From positions 54 through 64,053 of IMG/VR virus record IMGVR_UViG_3300020478_000007: a DNA stretch of 64,000 nucleotides; one strand, given 5' to 3'. This document shows, one piece after another, positions 58,901 through 58,998 of this stretch. How positions within the stretch are numbered: position 1 is the stretch's first letter; every line of letters begins with the position of its first letter. Position numbers and translations under genes: made by a program. Below the pieces are notes generated by a model, which was given only the letters and a program-made list of their open reading frames with translations, did not search any database and had not been told where the DNA came from. This DNA is from a virus (lineage: Duplodnaviria > Caudoviricetes).

Positions 58901-58979
58901 GGGGGTGGATAGGTTTCGACGTTGGTGAAAGCCGCATGCGGAGCACCAGCGGACGGGGGTTCAACTCCCCCCACCTCCA
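58901..58979 (+). ncRNA. ssrA: Mini-tmRNA: tRNA-like domain only, no tag-coding domain
   Basis: GGGGGUG/CACCUCC-A acceptor with G3.U70; stemless D-loop GAUAGGUUUCGAC; P2a GUUGGUG/CACCAGC; GGAC; T-arm GGGGG-UUCAACU-CCCCC. Confidence 0.85.
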
Positions 58980-58998
58980 CAATTTTTTTAAAAGGTAC

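What the first reader, a model, noticed from the sequence alone, without database searches (positions are those of the whole stretch)
58901..58990. 79-nt mini-tmRNA: complete tRNA-like domain, no mRNA-like domain
Seen: a 7-bp acceptor stem with G3.U70 and A discriminator (alanine identity); the stemless D-loop ending GGUUUCGAC; a 7-bp P2a; the GGAC linker; a perfect T-arm; then a T-tract (CCA is not fully encoded). P2a encloses only 16 nt (AAAGCCGCAUGCGGAG, echoing tmRNA's conserved GCAUGCCGAG) instead of pseudoknots and a tag ORF. The order is not permuted and both ends are present, so it is neither a two-piece tmRNA nor an attP fragment. Message-less tmRNAs are known from some mitochondria; I do not know of a characterised phage example. 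Inferred: an SmpB sponge that disables trans-translation, or tag-free ribosome rescue that protects phage proteins from degradation.
Basis: partly seen in the sequence, partly recalled or inferred. Interest (0 to 1): 0.85.

Follow-up and report, generated by a model that had tools for sequence, protein, structure and literature searches.

The report
Phage mini-tmRNA: tRNA-like domain only
An uncultured marine phage carries a real 79-base gene for only the alanine-accepting, tRNA-like end of the bacterial ribosome-rescue RNA (tmRNA); one such phage RNA was already in print, and this one belongs to a large conserved phage family that probably interferes with the host's rescue and tagging of stalled ribosomes.

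Summary
Rfam's tmRNA model (RF00023) matches 58901-58982 end to end at 77 bits (cut-off 47), with about 300 central positions deleted. ARAGORN calls nothing.

It is neither chance nor an assembly deletion. Independent marine DNA contigs from two other studies bridge the short form without indels. The same roughly 80-nt gene occurs in 59 of 59 IMG/VR pattern hits, in Streptomyces phages and in mycobacteriophage DS6A.

Covariation is strong: 95.6% of cells are paired, and 18 of 22 pairs change on both sides. G1-C72, G2-C71, G3.U70 and A73 are invariant in 40 of 40 distinct sequences.

The kind is already in print. DS6A is listed as 'TLD only' (PMC4131195) and as 'Standard, no CDS' (PMC11915505). 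Both cite Mao et al. 2009 for inhibition of tmRNA in E. coli. This scan has also reported the family before on other DNA. I therefore file it as a new member of a known kind.

Most likely mechanism (inferred): it is processed like a tRNA, charged with alanine, bound by host SmpB, and competes with host tmRNA so that SsrA tagging is suppressed. Tag-free rescue is the main rival. No expression evidence was obtained.

The parts
58901..58979 (+). Mini-tmRNA (TLD-only) gene, from G1 to the discriminator A73; 79 nt
   Evidence: Rfam RF00023 at 77 bits, model matched end to end; my model R1 at 87.8 bits; sequence read.
58901..58907 (+). Acceptor stem 5' strand GGGGGTG; G58903 is G3 of the G3.U70 alanine identity pair
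   Evidence: Pairs 7 of 7 with 58972-58978. G1-C72, G2-C71 and G3.U70 are invariant in 40 of 40 distinct family members, while pairs 4-7 covary.
58908..58920 (+). Stemless D-loop analogue GATA + GGTTTCGAC
   Evidence: Aligned to the tmRNA consensus GGaUUCGAC. This motif was part of my search pattern, so its conservation within the family is not independent evidence.
58921..58950 (+). Helix P2a (58921-58927 with 58944-58950, 7 bp), closed by a 16-nt cap (58928-58943). The cap holds a 3-bp hairpin, CCG 58932-58934 with CGG 58939-58941.
   Evidence: Fold. All 7 P2a pairs and all 3 inner-hairpin pairs show changes on both sides across the family. The cap has no stop codon and no room for a tag frame.
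58951..58971 (+). GGAC linker (58951-58954) and T arm (5 bp, 7-nt loop TTCAACT at 58960-58966)
   Evidence: T arm cells are 100% paired, and 4 of 5 pairs change on both sides. The only variant inside the element in another study's contig is 58965 C>T, in the T loop.
58972..58982 (+). Acceptor 3' strand CACCTCC (58972-58978), discriminator A (58979), then CAA. CCA is not encoded.
   Evidence: A73 is present in 40 of 40 distinct members; CCA is encoded in 11 of 40.
58983..58989 (+). T7 tract directly after the gene; possible transcription stop or 3' processing region (inferred)
   Evidence: Sequence. The terminator scan did not call it.
58232..58894 (+). Upstream gene (weak SprT-like metalloprotease match) whose stop codon lies 6 nt before G1. 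Co-transcription with 5' release by RNase P is inferred.
   Evidence: ORF. Pfam SprT-like E 0.0063, below the cut-off. No promoter-like site on the + strand between 58000 and 58900.
58999..59027 (+). Promoter-like site TTGTCA-17-TATAGT that starts the next transcription unit and marks the 3' boundary of the mini-tmRNA unit
   Evidence: 10 of 12 matches. An RNA-library contig starts at 59034.

Best explanation
This is a functional phage gene for a tmRNA reduced to its tRNA-like domain (TLD). The steps below are inferred.
1. It is transcribed at the end of the lysis/late gene block. RNase P cuts the 5' end, and the 3' end is trimmed and given CCA by the host enzyme.
2. Host alanyl-tRNA synthetase charges it through G3.U70 and A73.
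3. Host SmpB binds it, because the TLD is the SmpB-binding part of tmRNA.
4. It competes with host tmRNA for SmpB, and probably also for EF-Tu and the empty A site of stalled ribosomes.
5. It has no resume codon, tag frame or pseudoknots, so it cannot add the SsrA degradation tag.

The net effect is that host trans-translation and tagging are suppressed during infection.

Shown here: the gene, its structure, its conservation and covariation, its restriction to phages, and the absence of a tag frame.

Inferred: expression, processing, charging, SmpB binding and the effect on the host.
For: Identity:
- Rfam tmRNA 77 bits against a cut-off of 47, matched end to end.

Family:
- 59 of 59 IMG/VR hits to a pattern that constrains neither the acceptor stem, the P2a pairing nor the 3' T-arm strand match my model at E<=1e-10. 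So do the window, 3 Streptomyces phages and DS6A.
- 10 of 11 hits to two D-loop variants of the pattern also match.
- A check without the model: 45 of 47 unique viral elements have a 5/5 T arm, a 7/7 acceptor stem, A73 and U70. The same holds for only 4 of 80 unique hits in bacterial genomes.

Covariation:
- 95.6% of cells are paired, against 69.6% in shuffles and 42-52% when partners are slid.
- 18 of 22 pairs change on both sides.

Selection for charging:
- G1-C72, G2-C71 and G3.U70 are invariant in 40 of 40 distinct sequences, while pairs 4-7 vary freely. A73 is present in 40 of 40.

Genomic company:
- The gene lies among tRNA genes on the same strand in LuckySocke, GiJojo and Shaeky. Twelve of the 59 IMG/VR loci hold tRNA genes.
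- In 5 of 5 other phage records searched whole, and in this record, the mini is the only tmRNA match above the cut-off, so it is not a companion of a full phage tmRNA.

Not an artefact:
- Contigs from two other studies (X4, 58559-59083; X12, 58200-59103) bridge the gene without an indel.
- In X4, 1 of its 12 differences falls inside the 82-nt element, in the T loop.

Literature (passages read):
- The TLD is the crucial SmpB-binding region, and SmpB enhances alanylation and recruits tmRNA to ribosomes (PMC3022190).
[quoted passage not shown] 2009).
- PMC11915505 says the DS6A form inhibits endogenous tmRNA when expressed in E. coli.
Against: - I obtained no evidence that the RNA is made, processed or charged.
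- CCA is not encoded (CAA), so function depends on host 3' processing and CCA addition.
- The invariant alanine identity elements are not needed for a pure SmpB sponge. As quoted in PMC4131195, inhibition did not need chargeability. A simple sponge is therefore an incomplete account, and the data fit productive ribosome entry equally well.
- I could not read Mao et al. 2009 itself. The two citing papers differ on whether DS6A's own RNA or 'a similar molecule' was tested.
- The host is unknown. It is only inferred to be a Gram-positive or actinobacterial marine organism.
- No benefit to a phage from blocking trans-translation has been shown in anything I read.
- The record is about 83% complete, so absences of integrase, SmpB, ArfB-type and Pth genes are not proof.
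Confidence: 0.6

Rival explanations
1. Productive tag-free ribosome rescue. Ala-charged mini-tmRNA with host SmpB and EF-Tu enters stalled ribosomes and accepts the nascent chain. The peptidyl-RNA is then released or hydrolysed by host factors. Ribosomes are recycled for phage translation, and truncated or phage proteins are not marked for ClpXP-type degradation.
For: - Invariant G3.U70, G1-C72, G2-C71 and A73 in 40 of 40 distinct members argue that charging is under selection.
- The gene sits inside tRNA arrays in several phages.
- CDS-less organellar tmRNAs are thought still to help with incomplete mRNAs (PMC11915505, passage read).
- The TLD with SmpB mimics an aminoacyl-tRNA in the A site (PMC3022190, passage read).
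Against: - Nothing in the RNA can provide a stop codon, so release needs another factor.
- The record encodes no RF-1/ArfB-type domain, no peptidyl-tRNA hydrolase and no SmpB (record about 83% complete).
- The only experiment cited in what I read reports inhibition, not rescue (PMC4131195, PMC11915505).
Confidence: 0.25
2. A tRNA-like RNA-processing or 3'-end element. The fold serves as an RNase P or 3'-processing signal, or as a stabilising cap that ends the late transcript, with no role in trans-translation.
For: - The gene starts 6 nt after the stop codon of the upstream gene and has no promoter-like site of its own.
- It is followed by a T7 tract and then a promoter-like site for the next unit.
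Against: - A processing signal would not need G3.U70, A73 or the tmRNA-specific D-loop and GGAC motifs, which are conserved across unrelated phages.
- In other phages the gene lies among tRNA genes rather than at operon ends.
- Gene neighbours are not conserved: 0 of the other loci hold a homologue of the upstream SprT-like gene.
Confidence: 0.08
3. An attP site, an ssrA fragment picked up by imprecise excision, or a decaying remnant of a full phage tmRNA gene.
For: - Phages often integrate into ssrA and carry its 3' end. One search shows matches to the 3' end alone in a Moorella phage beside an integrase, in a Pseudomonas phage record annotated attR, and in Acinetobacter prophage records annotated ssrA.
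Against: - The 5' acceptor strand and D-loop are present and pair perfectly with the 3' end.
- No tyrosine or serine recombinase is in the record (record about 83% complete).
- DS6A integrates at tRNA-Lys, not at ssrA (PMC10865867, table read).
- Compensatory changes in 18 of 22 pairs show purifying selection on the fold.
- Lengths stay within 75-85 nt across the 74 model matches.
Confidence: 0.03
4. An assembly artefact that deleted the middle of a full-length tmRNA.
For: None found.
Against: Contigs from two further studies span the element and both flanks without any indel (records 1 and 22). The same short form occurs in finished genomes of cultured phages.
Confidence: 0.01

Closest known systems
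'TLD only' / 'Standard, no CDS' tmRNA of Mycobacterium phage DS6A (tmRNA Website tmID 11587; PMC4131195, PMC11915505; Mao et al. 2009, not read)
   Same: - Same architecture and size. DS6A 28478-28560 matches the tmRNA model end to end with the centre deleted and matches my model R1 at 53.3 bits.
- Both are phage-borne with no tag frame.
- Similar position, in the gap between DS6A gp33 and gp34, the latter annotated DNA polymerase III. That gp30-33 are lysis genes is my recollection, not a call result.
   Different: - DS6A's D-loop and linker motifs differ (GGTGGTCGAC and GGCAC), and it scores 43.2 bits, below Rfam's cut-off. The window's copy scores 77.
- The DS6A host is a mycobacterium and that phage is temperate. 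This phage is marine, uncultured and has no integrase in the record.
Bacterial tmRNA (SsrA, Rfam RF00023)
   Same: - Acceptor stem with G3.U70 and A73.
- Stemless D-loop GGUUUCGAC, P2a, GGAC linker and T arm.
- Scores above the family cut-off.
   Different: About 300 nt are missing: no resume codon, no tag reading frame, no stop codon and no pseudoknots PK1-PK4. CCA is not encoded.
CDS-less organellar tmRNAs (jakobid and oomycete mitochondria, 'Permuted, no CDS'; ~65-bp plastid forms of Mallomonadaceae; PMC11915505)
   Same: The tRNA-like part is retained without a tag frame, and they are thought to work with SmpB.
   Different: The mitochondrial forms are counted in that paper as permuted. 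They are organellar, with a nucleus-encoded SmpB. Here the gene order is standard and the carrier is a virus that encodes no SmpB.
Laboratory TLD fragments co-crystallised with SmpB (cited in PMC3022190)
   Same: The design is the same: acceptor stem, T arm, D-loop analogue and a capped P2a. These fragments bind SmpB 1:1.
   Different: Those are engineered. This one is natural, and its conserved cap holds a small hairpin of unknown role.
tRNA-Ala
   Same: G3.U70, A73, a 7-bp acceptor stem and a canonical T arm.
   Different: It has no D stem and no anticodon arm. ARAGORN does not call it, and Rfam's clan competition assigns it to tmRNA.
ssrA 3' fragments at phage att sites
   Same: They share the T arm and the acceptor 3' strand (hits covering query positions 38-80 or 49-80).
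   Different: Those lack the 5' strand, D-loop and P2a. The annotated ones lie beside an integrase or under attR or ssrA features.

Membership tests
tmRNA (RF00023), full functional definition | Covariance-model score above the curated cut-off | tested here: met
   77 bits against 47, model positions 1-374.
tmRNA (RF00023), full functional definition | tRNA-like domain: 7-bp acceptor stem with G3.U70, discriminator A73, T arm, stemless D-loop | tested here: met
   coordinates are given under parts.
tmRNA (RF00023), full functional definition | mRNA-like domain: resume codon, tag reading frame and stop codon | tested here: not met
   Only 16 nt lie inside P2a and they contain no stop codon. About 300 model positions are skipped.
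tmRNA (RF00023), full functional definition | Pseudoknots PK1-PK4 | tested here: not met
   There is no sequence available for them.
tmRNA (RF00023), full functional definition | Encoded or added 3' CCA, alanylation by AlaRS, SmpB binding | not testable with these tools
   CAA is encoded instead of CCA. Charging and binding need experiments.
Phage TLD-only mini-tmRNA ('Standard, no CDS' form; DS6A type) | Complete TLD with P2a closed by a short cap; total length about 75-85 nt | tested here: met
   79 nt to the discriminator. R1 scores 87.8 bits, and DS6A matches the same model.
Phage TLD-only mini-tmRNA ('Standard, no CDS' form; DS6A type) | Fold kept by compensatory changes among members | tested here: met
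   18 of 22 pairs change on both sides and 95.6% of cells are paired. The model-free check gives 45 of 47.
Phage TLD-only mini-tmRNA ('Standard, no CDS' form; DS6A type) | Carried by phages rather than by cellular chromosomes | tested here: met
   The window is a virus record with tape measure, terminase and endolysin genes. All 59 of 59 viral pattern hits are true members, against 5 of 80 bacterial-genome hits searched.
Phage TLD-only mini-tmRNA ('Standard, no CDS' form; DS6A type) | Inhibits host tmRNA | not testable with these tools
   Known to me only from citing passages in PMC4131195 and PMC11915505. The primary paper is not held.
Two-piece (permuted) tmRNA | Permuted gene order with separate acceptor and coding pieces | tested here: not met
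   RF04321 reaches 22.5 bits against 47 and covers model positions 36-98 of 213 only. The 5' and 3' halves are in standard order.
attP / ssrA 3' fragment | Only the 3' part of ssrA, next to an integrase | tested here: not met
   The 5' half is present. The record has no Phage_integrase or Resolvase match (record about 83% complete).
tRNA | D stem and anticodon arm | tested here: not met
   ARAGORN finds 0 genes. The structure lacks both.

The most novel reading that the evidence does not exclude
The mini-tmRNA is not a passive sponge but an alanine-charged, SmpB-dependent rescue RNA. It enters stalled ribosomes and accepts the nascent chain, giving tag-free release. Phages would use it to keep ribosomes cycling while shielding their own proteins from SsrA-directed proteolysis, for example when phage nucleases or host ribosome-stalling defences create non-stop messages. 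The strict invariance of the alanine identity set in 40 of 40 distinct members, which a pure sponge would not need, is what keeps this reading open.
Probability: 0.25. Interest if true: 0.75.

Novelty: new member of a known kind. Interest (0 to 1): 0.45.

Why it matters
Trans-translation is the main ribosome-rescue pathway in bacteria. A natural, widespread phage RNA that targets or replaces it would be a new layer of phage-host conflict over the translation machinery. It would also be a natural minimal ligand for SmpB and AlaRS.

The practical point is annotation:
- ARAGORN misses these genes.
- Cultured-phage records leave them unannotated or draw a protein gene over them.
- The curated tmRNA database counts only 9 'Standard, no CDS' sequences in all (PMC11915505). 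One narrow pattern found about 40 distinct ones in viral contigs here.

The single gene in this window adds a marine, tRNA-less phage to the known carriers.

Tried and rejected
- Expression: one search for sequencing runs and one laying of reads. RNA run X20 gave only 31-33-nt pieces over 58947-58981, with loose ends running into unlike sequence. These are the shared 3' ends of other organisms' full tmRNAs and say nothing about this gene. RNA run X19 covers 59034-59189 only. All runs laid were contigs, so no RNA ends or levels can be read.
- Trans partner for the palindromic cap: CCGCATGCGG with up to 1 mismatch occurs 4 times in the window, against a chance mean of 1.4; 7 of 100 shuffles reach 4. 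This gives no support.
- Conserved neighbours: tblastn of 11 window proteins against all loci held at the time found no shared neighbour of the element.
- Terminator: the scan of 58000-59600 did not call the T7 tract as a terminator.
- MAFFT alignments A1 and A2 misplace the D-loop and P2a gaps. I did not use them for pair counts.
- Model-fitted alignment A5: it starts three sequences, the window among them, one base late in the G run. This produces the few 'not paired' cells in helix 1. The fixed-offset script gives 7 of 7 for them.
- ARAGORN's 324-nt 'tmRNA' in L026 and L050 is rejected. Rfam places the tmRNA match at the 83-nt element only.
- Host: terminase and endolysin relatives and SOS-box-like sites point to a Gram-positive or actinobacterial host. 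This is weak, and the SOS consensus is recalled.
- Literature: a search for 'mini-tmRNA' found 0 papers. A five-term search on phage-encoded inhibition of trans-translation listed 5 of 7 papers, none on this RNA judging from titles and abstract starts. The supplements of PMC11915505 were not seen; its Table S2 may list more phage 'no CDS' entries.

Full report
**1. What is there**

The window is almost all of a 64,053-bp IMG/VR virus record that CheckV rates about 83% complete. GC content is about 47%.

It is a tailed phage. It has a tape-measure protein, a tail fibre, a large terminase, an SNF2 helicase and ParB-like genes. Near the finding it has an amidase endolysin, an SSB and a LexA-like protein.

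- a 7-bp acceptor stem, 58901-58907 with 58972-58978, with G3.U70 as G58903.T58976
- discriminator A at 58979
- a stemless D-loop analogue ending GGTTTCGAC, 58908-58920
- a 7-bp P2a, 58921-58927 with 58944-58950
- a 16-nt cap, 58928-58943
- GGAC, 58951-58954
- a perfect 5-bp T arm with loop TTCAACT, 58955-58971
- CAA instead of CCA, then T7

Rfam's tmRNA model matches it from first to last model position at 77 bits (cut-off 47, E 3.9e-28) while skipping about 300 central positions. The MFE fold gives the same helices (z -2.64). ARAGORN reports no tRNA or tmRNA in the whole window.

**2. Not an artefact**

The stretch 58200-59600 is held by 18 DNA runs at half of its words or more. The rows that hold it come from 8 named studies, all with marine labels.

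Contigs from two studies other than the possible source bridge the element and both flanks without an indel:
- X4, record 22, covers 58559-59083 with 12 differences.
- X12, record 1, covers 58200-59103 with 24 differences. Its only gap is at 58229.

All 12 X4 differences are listed. One lies in the element, 58965 C>T in the T loop, a position that also varies among relatives. Of the 24 X12 differences, 22 are listed and none is in the element.

**3. A conserved phage family**

A blastn search of cultured phages found the same roughly 80-nt element in Streptomyces phages LuckySocke, GiJojo and Shaeky. With the 82-nt query alone it also found pSt2308, BRock and Alone3.

In the three I opened, the element lies unannotated inside tRNA gene arrays on the same strand. 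In GiJojo it lies under a 'hypothetical protein' CDS. Each matches Rfam tmRNA end to end at 57-59 bits.

A pattern that fixes only the D-loop motif, CGGAC and GGTTC, with 20-40 nt between them, found 59 stretches in IMG/VR. A covariance model built from 9 of them matches all 59 at E<=1.1e-10. It also matches the window, the three Streptomyces phages and DS6A, giving 64 matches and 40 distinct sequences. Two D-loop variants of the pattern added 11 stretches, of which 10 match.

On the model alignment:
- 95.6% of cells form standard pairs, against 69.6% in shuffles and 42-52% with partners slid.
- 18 of 22 pairs change on both sides.
- No shuffle of 500 reaches any observed measure.

That alignment is fitted to the structure, so I repeated the test with fixed offsets from the pattern and no model. 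Of 47 unique viral elements, 45 have a 5/5 T arm, a 7/7 acceptor stem, A73 and U70. The two exceptions are L019, whose T loop is one base shorter so my offsets miss it, and L149, a chance hit.

**4. A control in bacterial genomes**

The same pattern found 81 stretches in one genome each of 185,579 species. Of the 80 I gave to the model, 5 match:
- a Streptomyces
- a Cellulosimicrobium
- a Mycobacterium MAG
- an Actinomycetota MAG
- one uncultured bacterium

The remaining 75, and L147 which I left out of that call, lack a T arm and acceptor pairing in the script outputs. They lie in GC-rich sequence and are chance matches.

So the element is strongly enriched in viral sequence. The named cellular carriers are actinobacteria, presumably through prophages (inferred).

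**5. Which parts are under selection**

G1-C72, G2-C71 and G3.U70 never vary in 40 of 40 distinct sequences, while acceptor pairs 4-7 covary freely. A73 is present in 40 of 40. CCA is encoded in only 11 of 40.

P2a covaries at all 7 pairs. The small hairpin in the cap covaries at all 3 pairs, although its sequence (CCGCAYGCGG) is kept in many members.

None of these acceptor or pairing features was part of the search pattern.

**6. What it is not**

- Not an attP or ssrA fragment. The 5' half is present, and the record has no tyrosine or serine recombinase. Phage matches limited to the 3' 32-43 nt include pieces annotated attR or ssrA and one beside an integrase. DS6A integrates at tRNA-Lys-CTT, not at ssrA (PMC10865867, table read).
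- Not a two-piece tmRNA. The permuted model reaches 22.5 bits against a cut-off of 47, and I found no trans partner for the cap.
- Not a companion of a full phage tmRNA. In 5 of 5 other phage records searched whole, and in this record, the mini is the only match above the cut-off.
- The phage encodes no SmpB, no RF-1/ArfB-type domain and no peptidyl-tRNA hydrolase, with the caveat that the record is incomplete.

**7. Mechanism**

Established knowledge read here (PMC3022190, passages):
- The TLD is the SmpB-binding part of tmRNA.
- SmpB raises alanylation, protects the RNA and recruits it to stalled ribosomes.
- Ala-TLD with SmpB mimics an aminoacyl-tRNA in the empty A site.

That G3.U70 and A73 are the alanine identity elements is textbook knowledge that I recall.

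From this I infer the following. The phage RNA is released from the late transcript like a tRNA. Its G1 lies 6 nt after the upstream stop codon, there is no promoter-like site of its own, and a T7 tract and then a promoter-like site follow. It then receives CCA, is charged with alanine, binds host SmpB and competes with host tmRNA. Having no resume codon or tag frame, it cannot tag.

The published precedent points the same way. Hudson, Lau and Williams list 'Mycobacterium phage DS6A (TLD only)' and state that a similar molecule, chargeable or not, strongly inhibits tmRNA, perhaps by titrating SmpB (PMC4131195, passages). The 2025 database paper says the DS6A form inhibits endogenous tmRNA in E. 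coli (PMC11915505, passages). Both cite Mao et al. 2009, which I could not read.

The strict conservation of the alanine identity set goes beyond what a sponge needs. The RNA probably acts on the ribosome. Whether that ends in a block or in tag-free rescue is open. I put about 0.6 on competitive suppression of tagging and 0.25 on productive tag-free rescue.

**8. Expression**

No support was obtained. The RNA-library pieces over 58947-58981 belong to other organisms' tmRNA 3' ends.

**9. Host and setting**

The phage recurs in marine metagenomes. Three weak clues suggest a Gram-positive, probably actinobacterial, marine host:
- Its terminase is about 43-44% identical to those of Gordonia phages and of Methanothermobacter phage psiM100.
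- 220 of 223 phage records matching its endolysin are actinophages, at about 30% identity.
- Four exact CGAAC-N4-GTTCG sites occur where 0.09 are expected. That this is the Gram-positive-type SOS box is recalled.

Its mini-tmRNA is 85% identical to that of soil Streptomyces phages over 75 nt, although the genomes share nothing else detectable. This fits horizontal spread of the gene (inferred).

**10. Novelty and score**

The kind is known, from DS6A and the 'Standard, no CDS' form. This scan has reported the family several times on other DNA. I therefore class this as a new member of a known kind.

What remains of interest:
- The family is much larger than the 9 'Standard, no CDS' sequences counted in the curated database (PMC11915505, Table 3 as read). 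That pipeline rejects large internal deletions and sequences lacking all three CCA positions (same paper, methods passage).
- The genes are systematically unannotated.
- No experiment in a phage infection is reported in anything I could search.

Interest 0.45.

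Noticed in passing
window 59030-59250 (+): The intergenic stretch after the promoter-like site at 58999-59027 is highly structured (MFE -76 kcal/mol, z -3.31, 0 of 200 shuffles as good). It includes a long hairpin just before the next ORF at 59250. A metatranscriptome contig covers 59034-59189 with no differences and begins 7 nt after the -10 hexamer. 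It could be a leader or a small RNA. DNA carry-over in the RNA library is not excluded.
   Followed up: partly
L026 6093-6154 (-): A Pistol self-cleaving ribozyme (RF02679, 51.9 bits against a cut-off of 34.5) lies about 105 nt upstream of that phage's mini-tmRNA. ARAGORN fuses the region into a false 324-nt 'tmRNA' with tag AWDYNPMWVQCSA, and does the same in L050.
   Followed up: partly
L002 2494-2736 (Streptomyces phage GiJojo, gene 44): An annotated 'hypothetical protein' CDS is drawn over the mini-tmRNA at 2496-2576. In LuckySocke and Shaeky, and in the rows for pSt2308, BRock and Alone3, nothing is annotated under the match. In the window the spurious ORF 58891-59124 overlaps the element in the same way.
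   Followed up: partly
window 48483-48496, 48498-48511, 49080-49093, 50152-50165: Four exact CGAAC-N4-GTTCG palindromes occur where 0.09 are expected by chance (0 of 100 shuffles reach 4). They resemble the Gram-positive/actinobacterial SOS box (recalled), and the phage encodes a LexA-like DNA-binding protein at 60353-60667.
   Followed up: partly
window 3138-5257 and 56001-56831: Three TauD/TfdA-family dioxygenase genes, plus a 2OG-Fe(II) oxygenase at 37624-38715 (-), an amidohydrolase at 53320-54501 and a short-chain dehydrogenase at 62186-62989 (-). This is an unusual load of oxygenase-type genes for a phage.
   Followed up: no
window 58947-58981 in RNA run X20 and DNA run X12: Short, deep contig pieces (word depth up to 390) match only the T arm and acceptor 3' strand and then run into unlike sequence. 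Abundant marine bacteria therefore have full tmRNAs whose last ~31 nt differ from the phage gene by 1-2 letters. This could be a host clue, but I did not pursue it.
   Followed up: no
L094 and L097 (haloarchaeal contigs): Two archaeal contigs matched the search pattern. They have no T arm or acceptor pairing, so they are chance hits, not archaeal mini-tmRNAs.
   Followed up: yes
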